Shown in pieces: positions 13,551-63,795 of a stretch of 64,000 bases of DNA. The DNA lies in assembly GCA_951406725.2 (NCBI GenBank), contig OX597822.1:16988001-17052000 (forward strand), given 5' to 3'. Made by a program: the position numbers and the translations under genes. Positions within the stretch are counted from its first letter, which is position 1, and every line of letters begins with the position of its first letter. Source of the DNA: Octopus vulgaris. Its lineage: Eukaryota. The notes beneath the pieces are model-generated. The model saw nothing but the letters and a program-made list of their open reading frames with translations. It had not been told where the DNA came from and did no database searches.

Positions 13551-13759
13551 AGTAGAAAACATCAAAAGAGGAATCTCTGTGGAATTTCTATGAAAACGTG
13601 AGAAATGAGAAGAAATAACTGTCCACATCATTCATCGTCACAAACCAACCAAGAAATATCTTCGCGGTCTCCTCCCTCGCCCTGCTAAAAGCAAAGACTG
13701 GCTCTCCCTCATAATCACACCTTGCACTGTAGTAGTTGTTTCATACATACATACATACA

Positions 13760-13795
<36 letters not shown>

Positions 13796-13900
13796 CATTA
13801 TATATATATATATATATAACAAAGTGGAGTTGTAAGGTACCGCACGAGTGGAATTATAGATGAAAGAAGGTTTGAAAATGCAATTTTAAAAGATGTTTAT

Positions 13901-13946
13901 TTACTTTACCGGTTTCACTTTTTTAGAAAAAGATTGTCAAAAGTAA
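13901..13946 (-). ncRNA. Hammerhead variant with U3-A8 core (UUGACAA)
   Basis: RC: UUACUU UUGACAA u CUUUUU cua AAAAAG u GAAA CCGG UA AAGUAA. 6 bp stem I, palindromic ACCGGU, GUA site. Confidence 0.7.
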
Positions 13947-14340
13947 CATGTAAAAGCTTGGTTGTGATAGGTACTGGTTGTCACAAAATGTTACAATATA
14001 TATATATACATTCTTTGATAATGAGGAAATGTTAAGAACAGTTTAGTAGTAGGGCAGTTTTAGGTCAGTTAAAACTACCCTACTTCTAAAATGTAAACTT
14101 TTTTGAACTTATAATATTCTGTGAATCTATACATATACAATACCAATATTCCGCTGAACTTTCTAATAATTCTTTCTGGAAACTGTCTTTAACATTTTCT
14201 TAAGAATATTGTAATCTTTTGTGCCCAATATTTTAATGAACTTGTTAAACTTTTTTATATTTTCCCAAAATTTTCCCTTGTAAACTGTTCTTAACATTTT
14301 GTGACAACCAGTACCTAACACAGCCAAGCTTTTACATGTA

Positions 14341-14383
14341 ACTTTTGACAATCTTTTTCTAAAAAAAGTGAAACCGGTCAAGT
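14341..14383 (+). ncRNA. Hammerhead variant with U3-A8 core (UUGACAA)
   Basis: ACUU UUGACAA ucuuuuucuaaaaaaagu GAAA CCGG UC AAGU; GUC site. Confidence 0.7.
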
Positions 14384-14420
14384 GAATAAACATCTTTTAA
14401 AATTGCATTTTCAAACCTTC

Positions 14421-14479
<59 letters not shown>

Positions 14480-51334: not shown

Positions 51335-53200
51335 CTAGCTGAATGACCCAGCATTGCTCGGGTTACAGCTCATAATTATTTCAAAATATCTATATTTTAT
51401 TTTAAAATATCCAAACTGTAATTATAATAGAATTTAGAATTGAAAATCTGTCAATGTTGAAGCACCTCAGAGTAAACAATATTCATTGCGTAATTTTTTT
51501 GTTGGTGTCCGAATGAATAAATTGTGGCTGCTTCCAACTCAAGCAACATAGAGTTGGCCTTGGGAGACGCCTGAAGTAGAGGGATCAAGTGCAACTACCT
51601 TGAGGGATTGACCCCTGAGATTTGTTAATTGAAATATCAAAACTTAGTTTGACTGGAAACTGAAGTGGCTTAAATTCAAATGGAACATCTGTAGGTAAGA
51701 AAAGAATTTTTGGAATGAAGACATTTTCTCCATTGTGACTACCTGTTATGATTGTTGCCTGAAGAACATGGGGCTTCATGGAAGTAACAATTACATGGGT
51801 CCTGTTACACAGGACCCATTTCTAAGCAACATTTCTAAGATTTCTAAGCAACATAATGGAAGTACCCAGCTTTAGTGTCAACTTATGCAGTGGCAGCCCC
51901 GTGGGTTTAAGTGTGTTCAGAAATTCAACAGGGTATTGAACAACCTGATCTTGATTGATTGTTGTCAGTTGATTAAAAAGTCATTTCCGATGCATCTGTT
52001 AACTTTTGAAGAAGTCCATGATTGAGTTTATCAACCATTTCACTAGCTAGAACTATTATGGCTGGTTCACAGAGCCAGTTTACATCAGTGTAATTGACAG
52101 ATGAATTAGGAAATACTTTATCCATAAGATCACTAAGAGAAAGTATCATTTGACCACATGTAAATTCATGTAGCTGAAGTCTTGAGTTGAATGTTAATAT
52201 CCCATCAGCAATCTTAAGACGCTCGTATGATCACCTTGCAGAAGTACTCTCATGTTGATTATAAGATGAACTTTTCTCACCTGTCTCCAAAGATAAAAAA
52301 TTTTGAAGCAAGCATTGACCTCATCAGCTTTTGATTATTTGGAGATAACTGGCAACATTTGACGAAAATCTCCTGCAAGAAGAACTGTTACTCTTCCCAT
52401 GAGCATGCTACTGTTTTTTATGTCTTGGAGTGTACAGTCAAGTACCTCTGGAGCTCCACGATGTGACAGTGCACTCGTCTCAAACAATGAAGCAAGTTTG
52501 TTGGAGAACTGTTGTCATTGCAGAGTATTTTAGAAATGTTGCCCATTTGAGATTCTTTCATTGCAAGGTTTAGAGGGAGCTTGAACATGGAAATGAGCAG
52601 TTCTTGAGGCGGGTAGCTGCAATACTATAAGATGCAACACTGGAAGAAGGTTAGATTTTATTTCCTCCCATTTAGAGTTGCAGGTGAAAGTGATAGAAAG
52701 ATCTGGTATTCATTCGTACATATATTGTGAACCAGCTGTGAATGATGATGGGAAGATTATAGGTTCTGCCATGTTTTGAATTTCACCATCTGTCCTCAGA
52801 GCATTTTGGAGATGAACATAATTTTTAGGCCTTAACGTTTTTTTGATTGTAACAAATGTAAAGGAGATGCTGACTCTCAACTTTAGCATATCAACCAGGT
52901 ATTGCTGAAATAGATCATGATGCAGGTGTAATTGATTTGATTGTTGTGGTCTTAAAATCATTTGGTAAGAATAGAAGTCGCTTGACAACACTTTTTTGTT
53001 TGTAATTGGCTCTCCCGTTGCAGGTTCAATCTGTGGAATATTGAAATGATACACATCTTGTCCATTCCACAAAGTAAGAGGATACTGGAGAGCATGATAA
53101 GAGGAATGAGTCTCTGAAACACATTTAAGGTTGTTATCTTGAGCACAAATAAGAATATCACGATTTCCATGGGGATCACCAACCATAAGGATGGCTATTT
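51335..53200 (-). mobile_element. Decayed, internally deleted Helitron (Rep region + PIF1-like helicase) with an intact 3' terminus
   Basis: ISETH-like ..YHALQYPL, LFQQYLVDM, IIFPSSFTAGSQYM; helicase GDFRQMLPV, LQFPVKLSFDISINKSQG, GQLYVA. RC end acccgagcaatgctgggt-cattcag-CTAG|T. Confidence 0.9.
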
Positions 53201-53283
53201 CATTAGTTGTGGACTCATTAAAATGGTGTAAAATGTCCTTTGCTATAGTTTACAACAGACATAACAGACACACACACACACAC

Positions 53284-60104: not shown

Positions 60105-61261
60105 TATACAAAACCACAGGCACCAAACAATACCTAGTATTTAGTTCCTGTCACCCGAAGCATATCAATGCAAATATCCCCTTCGACCTTGCAAGAAGGA
60201 TTTGCGCCATAGTGTCTGAAAAAAATACCAGTGTTCTAAGGCTACAAGAGCTTAAAAACGTACTCAAGGACAGGCACAACATAACTGAACTCATAAATGA
60301 AGGAATTAAACATGCAAAATCGATTGATATTAAAACATTAAGAAAAACCAAACACAGCAATACACCTACCTTTAAAACACTACCTTATGTCTCCACATTC
60401 AACCCCAGAAGCAAAGAAGCATTTAAAATCATTGTCCAAAATCTCCAAACACTCCATAAGGATGCCAAACTTAAGGAAATTCTGCGTAACCATAAAATCC
60501 TTAAGAGCAGCAAACAGCCTAGGACATTGAAGACGATCCTCACAAATGCCAAACTATTCTCTATAACAACAGTGGTCGCCCTAATTGCAGAACATGTCCC
60601 AATCTATTGGAAGGATCAGAATTCCATTTTGGGCAAGAGCAAGTATTCAAAATCGAATCTTACTTCACTTGCGCCTTCCAAGTATCTATGTAATTAGATG
60701 CTTGGGCTGCTATACGCACTATGTTGGTTCACCAGGAATGTTGCTCAGACAGAGATGTACGATCCACATACAACAAATATCCTCCCCACAATATTGCCAA
60801 ATATATCTCAGTCAACACATTGACAAATGTGCAGAATGATTACAACCATAATTCGTAATTTTCCCATTTTATCAACTTGCTTTCTGAACCTCAACGCAAG
60901 TAAGACTGAATAAAGAAGAACCATTTATTCAAAAATATAAACTAGAATTAAATATGAACCCATATTCATAATAAAAGACTTACCACTTCTAATGTAGGAT
61001 ATAAGCCAGAACAAAATACAGACCAAAAAAAAAAAAAAAACAGATTTACCTCCCCTGTACTGTAAAATAAATGAGTAAACAATTATCTCCCTTAGTAATA
61101 TGTCTATTTTTCTACCCTTAGCTTGATGAGCAATGGGAAACCAGTTCTTACTGTAATTATGTTGAAAGAACAAAATCTTATTAATAACTTTATTATTATG
61201 ACTCTAATATACTCCTTAATCCTGTAAAAATAAATTTTCTTTGTTTTTTCATCTTTTCTCT

Positions 61262-61517: not shown

Positions 61518-63105
61518 TCATCATCATCATTTAACGTCCGTTTTCCATGCTGGCAAGGGTTGGGCGGTTTTGACTGAGAGCTGGTAACCAGATGGCTGCA
61601 CTAGGCTCCAATCTGATCTGGCAGAGTTTCTACAGCTGGATGCCCTTCCTAATGCCAACCACTCCAAGAGTGTAGTGGGTGCTTTTTACATGCCACCTGC
61701 ATGGGGGCCAGTCAGACGGTACTGGCAATGACCACACTCGAATCTTTTTACACGTGCCACCGACACAGGTGCCAGTTAAGTGACATTGATTATGATCACG
61801 CTCAAATGGTGCCCTTTTACATGCCACGGGTATGGGAGCCAGTTGACTGCTCTGGCAATGATCACGCTCGGATGGTGCTCTTGGTACCCTACTAGCACAG
61901 GCATAAGTACCAGTAAGGTGACACTGGTAACAATTATACTCGAATAGCCCCTTCTGTCAATGATCACACTCGTATGGTGCTCTTTGCACCCCACTAGCAC
62001 GGATGTCAGTCATCGAATTGATTTTGATTTTGATTTCACTTGCCTCAACAGGTCTTCGCAAGCAAAGTTTAGTGACCAAAGAAGGAAAAGGTATGCGTAA
62101 GCGAGCTGGTTACGCTCCTGGCATAGGCCACAGGTAATGGTCTCATCTGGCTTGCCGGATCTTCTCGAGCACAGCATATTTCCAAAGGTCTCGGTCGCTA
62201 GTCATTTCCTTGGTGAGGCCTAATGTTTGAAGGTCATGTTTCACCACTTCATCATAGGTCTTCCTGGGTCTACCTCTTCCACAGCTTCCCTGAACAGCTA
62301 GGGTGTGGCACTTTTTCACACGGCTATCCTCATCCATTCTCACCACATGACCATACCAGCGCAGTCATCTCTCTTGCACACCACATCTAATGCTTCTTAG
62401 GTCCAGCTTTTCTCTCAAGGTACTTACAACTCTGTTGAGTATGCACACTGACATTACACATCCATCGGATCATACTGGCTTCATTCCTTGTGAGCTTATG
62501 CATATGTTTCACTGCCGTGTAGCATGGCTGTTTGTACACATGCATCACACAGTCTACCTTTTACTCTGAGCGAGAGGCCCTTTGTCACCAACAGAGGTAA
62601 GAGCTCTTTGAACTTTGCCCAAGCTATTCTTATTCTAGCAGCTACACTTTCAGTGCACTCTCCTCCGCTACTGATTTGGTCACCTAGATAATGGAAGCTA
62701 TCAACTACTTCTAGTTTTCCTCCCTGGGTCGTGGCGGAAGTTGGTCTCTGCACATTTTCAGTGTTTATCAATCCCAAGCATCTGCCACATACAAAAACTA
62801 TCTTCCCAGTTAGCCTTCCTTTGATATTACTGCACCTCTTATGTGTCCATAACTTACACAGGGTACATCTTCTAGAGTTTTTACCTACACCTTTACTACA
62901 GATCAAGCAGGGCCATCTACCTGAAGGGATTTGGGGTTTTCCTGCCTTCCTACTTATTAGGACTTTGGTTTTAGCTAGGTTGATTCTAAGGCCCTTCGAT
63001 TCTAATCCTTGTTTCCACACTTGAAACTTCTCCTCTAGTTCTGATAGCAACTCAGCAATTAGACCAAGGTCATCAGCATAGAGGAGCTCCCAGGGGCATC
63101 CTGTT
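61518..63105 (-). mobile_element. 5'-truncated RTE-clade LINE (RT C-terminal half with embedded PHD-like finger, 3' UTR, (TGA)n tail)
   Basis: [63 protein letters not shown]; frameshifts present. Confidence 0.92.
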
Positions 63106-63142
63106 TGATATACATATATATATATATATGTATATATATATG

Positions 63143-63173
<31 letters not shown>

Positions 63174-63795
63174 ATGTATGTATATGTATGTATGTATGTA
63201 TATATATATTCATGTGTGTGTGATGATGATGTATATATATATATATATATATACTTCTTTTATGAGTTTATTTCTTTTCTGTGCATCAGCCATATGGCTG
63301 CAGTCATGCTGGAACAACACTTTGACATTGTACTCTTTCCACAACTGTCCCATGTGGTTGATTTCTTCTGCGTGGTGGGATTTCATATCTTTAAGAAAAT
63401 AACCTGTTGTTTGACTAGAATTTCACTCTTTCAATCTCAACAGAAACAGCACAAGTATAATATTGAAAATTGTTGCTCATACACAAAAGTGGTAACCAAG
63501 GAAACCAGTTTTCGTATAATGCCATCTGAAGCTGAAGGAAAAAATCTAAATATTTATACATATTGAGAAAGTAAAATTGAATTTAAAAAAGAAAACAGTT
63601 GTAAAACATTAAAAATACTAATAAATATAAACTGATAAATATTAATAAGAAGTTAAATAAATAAGTAAATACATTAAATATGTGCATAAATAATGAAACA
63701 GATGAAACGGTTTTGAGATAAAGCAACACAATTGCACACAACACTGTTTTACACGAGAATACACAAATGAATGTGTTTATATATGTGTGTATATA

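What the first reader, a model, noticed from the sequence alone, without database searches (positions are those of the whole stretch)
13860..14426. Inverted element carrying two outward-facing hammerheads with a compensatory U3-A8 core
Both arms read UUGACAA in place of CUGANGA. Changing C3 to U and G8 to A together preserves the 3-8 pair of the active hammerhead, so this looks like covariation, not decay. Both arms also share a U.U mismatch at 10.1/11.1 and use different permitted cleavage triplets (GUA, GUC). The spacer has an extra ~20-bp hairpin (14042-14090). The layout resembles inverted Penelope pseudo-LTRs and would release an internal 3' end whichever strand is transcribed.
Basis: partly seen in the sequence, partly recalled or inferred. 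Interest (0 to 1): 0.7.

Follow-up and report, generated by a model that had tools for sequence, protein, structure and literature searches.

The report
Inverted Penelope retroelement stub with hammerheads
This is an ordinary head-to-head, truncated insertion of a very common Penelope-type jumping gene; each half ends in the family's small hammerhead RNA motif, predicted to cut itself, whose unusual U-A and U-U pairs are already published variants, and the mirror layout is likely a by-product of insertion, not a two-way cutting device.

Summary
Two 140-nt arms (95% alike) each carry a type I minimal hammerhead with U3-A8, U10.1·U11.1 and a GUA or GUC site. The insert is 13819-14425: two 5'-truncated 3' ends of an abundant C-terminal-endonuclease Penelope-like element (RT, Cys linker, GIY-YIG; Neptune/Nematis type), joined head to head in (TA)n, with the 42-nt tail on one end. 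The 'spacer hairpin' is the inversion junction.

U3-A8 is inherited by more than 1,500 copies. No C3-G8 copy was found, so 3/8 covariation cannot be seen inside the family. The core is, however, unchanged across subfamilies while loop II and N17 change. U3-A8, U·U and opposite-strand hammerhead pairs are all in print (PMC3088659, PMC4209133).

Two-way release is unlikely. In read-through RNA each hammerhead is predicted to be locked in the arm-arm duplex (about 56-60 kcal/mol penalty) and has no sense partner to dimerise with. Of 26 scored inverted insertions, 24 have the tail on exactly one end, which fits two reverse-transcription start sites. The scan noted this pattern before on other DNA. 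New member of a known kind; low interest.

The parts
13819..14425 (.). Whole insertion: two 5'-truncated 3' ends of one Penelope-like family joined head to head
   Evidence: family linked to an RT-EN ORF
13819..14062 (-). Left (inverted) copy, ending at the long end; has an internal deletion of about 210 nt near 14043 relative to family copies such as L217
13819..13860 (-). About 42-nt PLE tail, on this end only; in full-length tandem copies it leads through a short TA run into ORF1
13903..13944 (-). Type I minimal hammerhead motif (U3 13940, A8 13935, U·U at 10.1/11.1, GUA with A17 at 13907)
14038..14094 (.). Palindrome at the inversion junction (centre about 14062), formed by the 5' ends of both copies
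   Evidence: junctions at the same spot in L049/L206, L060, L037
14062..14425 (+). Right copy, ending at the short end without tail; AT-rich sub-repeats of the 3' UTR/pLTR
14341..14383 (+). Type I minimal hammerhead motif (U3 14345, A8 14350, U·U at 10.1/11.1, GUC with C17 at 14379; predicted cut 14379/14380)
13740..13818 (.). Left flank: (TACA)n/(TA)n microsatellite, target side
14426..14476 (.). Right flank: (TA)n microsatellite, target side

Best explanation
The element is two truncated 3' ends of an abundant protein-coding Penelope-like retrotransposon joined head to head in a TA microsatellite, likely made in one insertion in which the element's enzyme primed two cDNAs, one from each side of the cut target, at two start sites about 42 nt apart. 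SHOWN: the arms belong to a family whose long copies run RT - Cys linker - GIY-YIG - CA-rich 3' UTR - hammerhead - tail; paired copies face outward; the tail sits on one end; both flanks are TA repeats. INFERRED from the PAc biochemistry (PMC11167929): twin priming at two sites and joining of the two truncated cDNAs, which gives the junction palindrome. The hammerhead is the family's inherited pLTR motif. It is PREDICTED to be a slow, dimer- or protein-dependent ribozyme that would act in tandem pLTR-ORF-pLTR transcripts of full-length copies, and is likely kept by selection in the master lineage. In this stub it is likely inert.
For: Family size: 2,233 candidates for one arm; 220 and 1,315 exact-pattern matches, with 0 for the reversed controls. 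Protein: RVT_1 E 2e-8 and GIY-YIG E 2e-6. The RT-EN-UTR-arm order was seen in 6 of 10 fetched 10-kb stretches (L095, L097, L098, L101, L102, L103). Full-length pLTR-ORF-pLTR copies with an adjacent inverted arm: L144, L145. Orientation: 22 outward pairs, 0 inward and 1 same-strand pair within 12 kb among the first 100 listed matches; 21 of 22 pairs have identical hammerhead strings. Tail: on exactly one end in 24 of 26 scored inverted insertions, neither in 2, both in 0; 1 of 27 not scorable. Selection: 0 of 27 constrained hammerhead columns differ among subfamily majorities, against 12 of 85 downstream (p 0.03) and 5 of 15 free hammerhead columns. N17 is C in 91, A in 7, U in 2 of 100 in the window's subfamily and U 66, A 33, C 1 of 100 in the sisters; G occurs in 4 copies genome-wide. 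Read-through RNA: stem I and II pair probabilities about 0 and a 56-60 kcal/mol penalty. Literature.
Against: Cleavage was not tested, and Rfam gives no hammerhead hit. The conservation test is partly circular, because arms were picked with a pattern that holds 13 of the 27 constrained columns, and it rests on three related subfamilies. No excess of 5' junctions at the predicted cut: 8 arms against 7 at one control site. Insertions exist whose arms share a broken 3-8 pair (U3·G8 on C17, C3·A8 on C7). The window's two arms are no closer to each other (95%) than to other copies (96%), and carry different segregating variants (GUA+A versus GUC+G), so two templates or two events are not excluded. 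The clade was assigned by motif only; no tree was built.
Confidence: 0.85

Rival explanations
1. One reading: a selected two-way device in which either strand's transcript is cut to release a defined internal 3' end.
For: Both motifs are intact and face outward.
Against: Outward-facing pairs are the family's routine insertion product (22 of 22 opposite-strand pairs) and are described for PLEs. Each hammerhead is 95-96% paired to the other arm in read-through RNA. The palindromic stem III needs a second sense copy: the monomer folds score +5.7 to +15.8 kcal/mol. The arms have drifted 5% and carry deletions.
Confidence: 0.04
2. Same family and same event, but the inversion arose by fold-back (self-priming at the palindrome) of a single cDNA or antisense template, as proposed for Adineta Penelope elements.
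For: Palindromes at the junctions, some nearly symmetric (L013, L150, L152). Arms usually share private variants. The model is in PMC3846280.
Against: Simple fold-back copying predicts matching outer ends, but 24 of 26 pairs differ by exactly the tail. The window's arms have different deletions and different segregating variants.
Confidence: 0.2
3. The hammerhead is a vestige or is kept for a non-catalytic role (protein binding, promoter or RT-start structure); U3-A8 and U·U were fixed once in a master and simply inherited.
For: No pile-up of 5' ends at the cut. Variants with a broken 3-8 pair were copied. In PAc, catalytic mutants do not affect insertion in vitro and no reads end at the cut. 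No C3-G8 relative was found that would date the swap.
Against: Two changes that restore exactly the 3-8 pair. The core is invariant among subfamilies while loop II and N17 change, and N17 takes C, A and U but not G as a major state. U3-A8 and U·U support cleavage in other hammerheads.
Confidence: 0.3
4. The insert is a MITE or a non-coding retrozyme with its own terminal inverted repeats.
For: About 600 nt, non-coding, with inverted ends. Retrozyme-like 359-nt arrays exist in this genome.
Against: Most copies are single arms with variable 5' ends. The arm is continuous with an RT-GIY-YIG ORF. No tandem monomers of the stub were seen in the loci read.
Confidence: 0.02

Closest known systems
Minimal type I hammerheads in PLE pseudo-LTRs, including the U3-A8 variant of Schistosoma mansoni Cercyon (Cervera and De la Pena 2014, PMC4209133; parts 1-2 of 4 read)
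   Same: Short stem I, palindromic 15.2-16.2 region, location in the pLTR, U3-A8 core (about 1,300 hits there), and dual motifs 100-700 bp apart on opposite strands.
   Different: Their consensus has G10.1-C11.1 with an extra base after A9; here it is U·U (or C-G flanked by two U). Different host and probably a different PLE clade.
Natural hammerhead core variants (Perreault et al. 2011, PMC3088659; section 8 and passages read)
   Same: Natural U3-A8 covariation and a natural U10.1-U11.1 mismatch, both stated to be compatible with cleavage.
   Different: The text I read does not say that both occur in one motif or in a PLE; figures and supplements were not seen.
C-terminal EN+ PLEs of the Neptune/Nematis type (Craig et al. 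2021, PMC8557442, introduction and passages read; Arkhipova et al. 2013, PMC3846280, passages read)
   Same: RT, CX2-5CxxC linker and GIY-YIG with CCHH; partial tandems; an adjacent inverted 5'-truncated copy; junction palindromes; a 30-40 bp tail on one end; (TA)n targets.
   Different: Young copies here have a separate 448-aa ORF1 that overlaps ORF2 in the -1 frame at a U6A run, and a 1.5-2 kb CA-rich 3' UTR. The ORF starts about 120 nt after the predicted cut. Clade not confirmed by a tree.
PAc (Anolis Poseidon) in vitro system (Frangieh et al. 2024, PMC11167929; parts 1-2 of 4 read)
   Same: Two adjacent RT start sites define the tail; both target strands are cut and extended; the hammerhead lies upstream of the start sites, so uncut RNA is the template.
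   Different: Poseidon clade with a C3-G8 core and an ORF that starts inside the hammerhead.

Membership tests
Penelope-like element (C-terminal EN+) | RT followed by a GIY-YIG endonuclease with CCHH, linked to this 3' end | tested here: met
   [quoted passage not shown] The ORF is in other copies, not in the window's stub.
Penelope-like element (C-terminal EN+) | Tandem pLTR-ORF-pLTR with the hammerhead in the pLTR | tested here: met
   L144 and L145 of the sister subfamily; an upstream hammerhead in 11 of the 30 ORF1 loci by descriptor scan.
Penelope-like element (C-terminal EN+) | Adjacent inverted 5'-truncated copy and a 30-40 bp tail on one end | tested here: met
   22 outward and 0 inward pairs; tail on one end in 24 of 26.
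Neptune clade | CX2-5CxxC linker between RT and EN; microsatellite target bias | tested here: met
   C-X4-C-X2-C before the GIY-YIG; (TA)n flanks. Nematis shares the linker.
Neptune clade | RT phylogeny groups with Neptune rather than Nematis | not tested
   No named reference sequences in hand; the homolog search returned 1,729 mostly unnamed proteins.
Type I minimal hammerhead | Core with a paired 3-8, GAAA, A15.1-U16.1, H17, stems I and II, palindromic stem III | tested here: met
Type I minimal hammerhead | Consensus G10.1-C11.1 pair | tested here: not met
   U·U in 106 of 106 arms matched by the script; a published natural variant, so it lowers 'consensus' but not 'hammerhead'.
Type I minimal hammerhead | Site-specific self-cleavage after N17 | not testable with these tools
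   Only contigs of runs guessed to be RNA were available.
Type I minimal hammerhead | Genomic footprint of cleavage (copies starting at the cut) | tested here: inconclusive
   8 junction arms of 11 matches at the cut against 7 of 14 at one control site 18 nt upstream, sister subfamilies only.
Non-LTR retrozyme | Non-coding tandem monomers with one hammerhead each | tested here: not met
   The arm is the 3' end of a coding element.
MITE / TIR DNA transposon | Fixed length with terminal inverted repeats in most copies | tested here: not met
   Mostly single arms with variable 5' ends.

The most novel reading that the evidence does not exclude
A recently active, high-copy Neptune-type element keeps a hammerhead with a doubly deviant core (U3-A8 plus U10.1·U11.1) under selection through several subfamilies, cycling its cleavage base among C, A and U, although templates with a broken 3-8 pair still insert. 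Cleavage would then serve long-term lineage survival (RNA processing or translation of the frameshifted ORF1-ORF2 message), not insertion. Each inverted copy records twin priming by one enzyme dimer, sometimes on two different RNAs as in this window.
Probability: 0.3. Interest if true: 0.45.

Novelty: new member of a known kind. Interest (0 to 1): 0.2.

Why it matters
The locus itself is one dead stub among thousands. The family is useful as material. It has intact young copies (776-aa RT-EN), hundreds of inverted insertions that obey a one-tail rule, and natural 3-8 and N17 variants. These could test the two-start-site model of Penelope insertion outside the Poseidon clade and the open question of what PLE hammerheads are for.

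Tried and rejected
Rfam scan at E<=1: no hammerhead family in the window, only microsatellite-driven miRNA hits below their gathering scores.

Within-family 3/8 covariation: rejected as a test. No C3-G8 copy among 11 non-U3 matches, 11 non-A8 matches or the first 100 of 220.

Search for a C3-G8 sister family with the same stem III: 395 matches against 40 control. The 30 loci taken were a 359-nt tandem repeat, an older family with A·A at 10.1/11.1, and a few singletons; none had a tblastn hit to this element's ORFs within 1.5 kb. The ancestral state is undated.

Cleavage footprint: no excess at the cut.

Expression: no RNA holder listed on record as RNA. Contigs of four runs guessed to be RNA carry family pieces but cannot show ends, strand or level.

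U3·G8 as a spreading lineage: the two C17 loci have near-identical flanks and may be one insertion duplicated, so they count once.

A fixed 5' end at L063:8329 turned out to be that copy's own truncation.

Pile-up of 5' ends near the junction landmark is seen in the window's subfamily but not in the sister sample.

Paper searches for 'C3U/G8A' and for '3-8 base pair/U3A8' returned nothing. Lunse et al. (RNA Biol 14:1499) was not held, so I saw only its citation and a review's summary; its variant catalogue and the unseen figures and supplements of PMC4209133 and PMC3088659 may already include the U3-A8 plus U·U combination. A search for Octopus + Penelope + hammerhead listed 4 papers, none on this family by title or abstract start.

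Full report
OBSERVATION. The window lies in a 2.8-Gb, 227-contig assembly; that it is octopus-like is my inference, not a tool result. Arms 13855-13993 and 14292-14431 are 95% identical inverted repeats. Each holds a type I minimal hammerhead motif: + 14341-14383 (U3 14345, A8 14350, C17 14379) and - 13944-13903 (U3 13940, A8 13935, A17 13907). Both have a 4-bp stem I, U·U at 10.1/11.1, a 5-bp stem II and a palindromic 6-nt stem III. A descriptor found 3 motifs in the window and none in 100 shuffles. Rfam lists no hammerhead at E<=1, and the isolated motifs fold no better than shuffles. The hairpin 14038-14094 is strong.

WHAT IT IS. One arm has 2,233 candidates in the genome. Most of the first 30 loci are single arms with variable 5' ends and TA repeats at the 3' end, which is either a short end or a long end 42 nt further on. 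Walking upstream through a CA-rich 3' UTR reaches a GIY-YIG domain, a C-X4-C-X2-C linker and an RT (Pfam E 2e-6 and 2e-8). RT, EN and arm lie in this order in 6 of 10 fetched stretches. A younger sister subfamily (85-92% DNA identity in ORF2) has full-length copies: pLTR with hammerhead, tail, short TA run, ORF1 (448 aa), ORF2 (776 aa, RT-EN), UTR, second pLTR, and an inverted truncated copy adjoining the 5' end. This is a C-terminal EN+ Penelope-like element of Neptune/Nematis type by its linker (PMC8557442); no tree was built. The window holds a left copy (14062 to 13819, with tail and a deletion of about 210 nt) and a right copy (14062 to 14425, no tail). The 'spacer hairpin' is the two 5' ends meeting. 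Other copies invert at the same spot (L049/L206, L060, L037), and junction palindromes are described in PMC3846280.

THE 3-8 PAIR. Of 220 exact-pattern matches in the window's subfamily, the 100 listed are 98 U3-A8 and 2 C3·A8. The sister subfamilies have 1,315 matches with A8 and 11 without, all U3 (6 G, 2 C, 3 U). Across both, 11 matches lack U3 and all keep A8. So U3-A8 is inherited, and no compensated C3-G8 copy was found.

Evidence for selection comes from comparing subfamilies. None of 27 constrained columns differ among subfamily majorities, against 12 of 85 downstream (p 0.03) and 5 of 15 free hammerhead columns (47 tail-bearing arms; partly circular because the filter contained 13 of the constrained columns). 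N17 is mostly C in one subfamily (91 of 100) and U or A in the sisters (66 and 33 of 100), with only 4 G copies genome-wide. The left arm's GUA is a small sub-lineage (7 of 15 matches).

Against a need for cleavage in insertion: both arms share a broken 3-8 pair at a C17 locus (U3·G8, also in its internal pLTR; probably one event duplicated) and at a C7 locus (C3·A8). Junctions at the predicted cut are no more frequent than at one control site (8 against 7 arms).

HOW IT LIKELY AROSE. Among the first 100 listed sister-family matches, 22 pairs within 12 kb face outward, none face inward and 1 is same-strand; 21 of 22 have identical motif strings. Of 27 inverted insertions examined (20 picked from the window's subfamily), 24 have the tail on exactly one end, 2 on neither, 0 on both, and 1 could not be scored. 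PMC11167929 shows that a PLE protein cuts and extends both target strands and starts reverse transcription at two adjacent sites that bracket the tail. The simplest reading (inferred) is twin priming at the two sites, with head-to-head joining of two truncated cDNAs. Fold-back synthesis is the rival, but it predicts matching ends. The window's arms carry different segregating variants, which hints at two templates; this is unresolved. In the window's subfamily 18 of the 29 arms that extend past the junction landmark end within 56 nt upstream of it. This could mark an RNA start or an RT stall; the sister sample does not show it.

FUNCTION IN THIS STUB. In a 609-nt read-through RNA of either strand, the hammerhead bases are 95-96% paired with the other arm, the stem I and II probabilities are about 0, and forcing them costs 56-60 kcal/mol (equilibrium model). 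The monomer fold is unfavourable, and only one sense copy exists per strand, whereas PLE minimal hammerheads were active only as dimers or with an extended stem III, and the PAc hammerhead needed its protein. Two-way release is therefore unlikely. The motif would matter in tandem full-length transcripts. Expression could not be judged.

COMPARISON. PMC4209133 reports U3-A8 minimal hammerheads in Cercyon PLEs and dual motifs 100-700 bp apart on opposite strands. PMC3088659 reports natural U3-A8 and a natural U10.1-U11.1 mismatch, both compatible with cleavage. PMC8557442 describes the inverted 5'-truncated copy, the one-ended tail and (TA)n targets. I did not see both variants reported in one motif in the text I read, but figures, supplements and Lunse et al. 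were not available. Earlier scan notes (unchecked AI notes) describe U3-A8 hammerheads and the one-long-one-short-end rule in other repeats of this and other genomes. One of them reports fold-back points piling up at the cut, which my small test did not show here.

VERDICT. Real, correctly spotted and explained: a new member of a known kind. Interest 0.2.

Noticed in passing
L144:3803-7419 (also L147; overlap region in L104-L133): Young full-length copies have two ORFs: a 448-aa ORF1 and the 776-aa RT-EN ORF2 in the -1 frame, overlapping at a U6A slippery-like run. ORF2 also has its own ATG about 30 nt later and the downstream fold is weak (-6.5 kcal/mol). Homopolymer length varies among copies. 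Possible programmed frameshift in an EN+ PLE.
   Followed up: partly
window 9580-9524 (- strand): A second, unrelated minimal hammerhead with canonical C3-G8, G10.1-C11.1, a long stem II and a palindromic stem III, about 190 nt before an (ATAATT)n repeat; probably another PLE family end.
   Followed up: no
L166, L175, L176, L181-L186, L190, L191 (about 1500-1545 in each): An older C3-G8 hammerhead family in the same genome mostly has A·A at 10.1/11.1, so a non-canonical pair at this position recurs.
   Followed up: partly
L167-L173, L179-L180, L187-L189, L192-L193: A 359-360-nt tandem repeat with one C3-G8 hammerhead per unit (retrozyme-like) also forms head-to-head inverted arrays.
   Followed up: no
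window 60107-60956 (+): Broken fragment of another Neptune-type PLE (RT thumb, linker, GIY-YIG), about 50% identical to this family's ORF2.
   Followed up: no
L221/L222 (G000:C6:7734908-7735481): Both arms of one inverted insertion begin at the predicted cut and are preceded by the same roughly 30-nt sequence that is not the family hammerhead; L226 and L228 also have both arms starting within 2 nt of the cut.
   Followed up: partly
window 14038-14094; L018, L020, L030, L041, L048, L049, L060, L208, L217: 5' ends of the window's subfamily cluster just upstream of one landmark about 330-400 nt before the hammerhead; RNA start or RT stall, not seen in the sister sample.
   Followed up: partly
window 52710-53249 (-) and 62496-63209 (-): Open frames that look like a Helitron helicase fragment and an RTE-type LINE fragment (names recalled, not checked by a family search).
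   Followed up: no
L063:2786-3262 (- strand; script offset 6738 on the reverse strand): Fragment of a GIY-YIG-type PLE without the Cys linker, Poseidon-like by recalled motifs.
   Followed up: no
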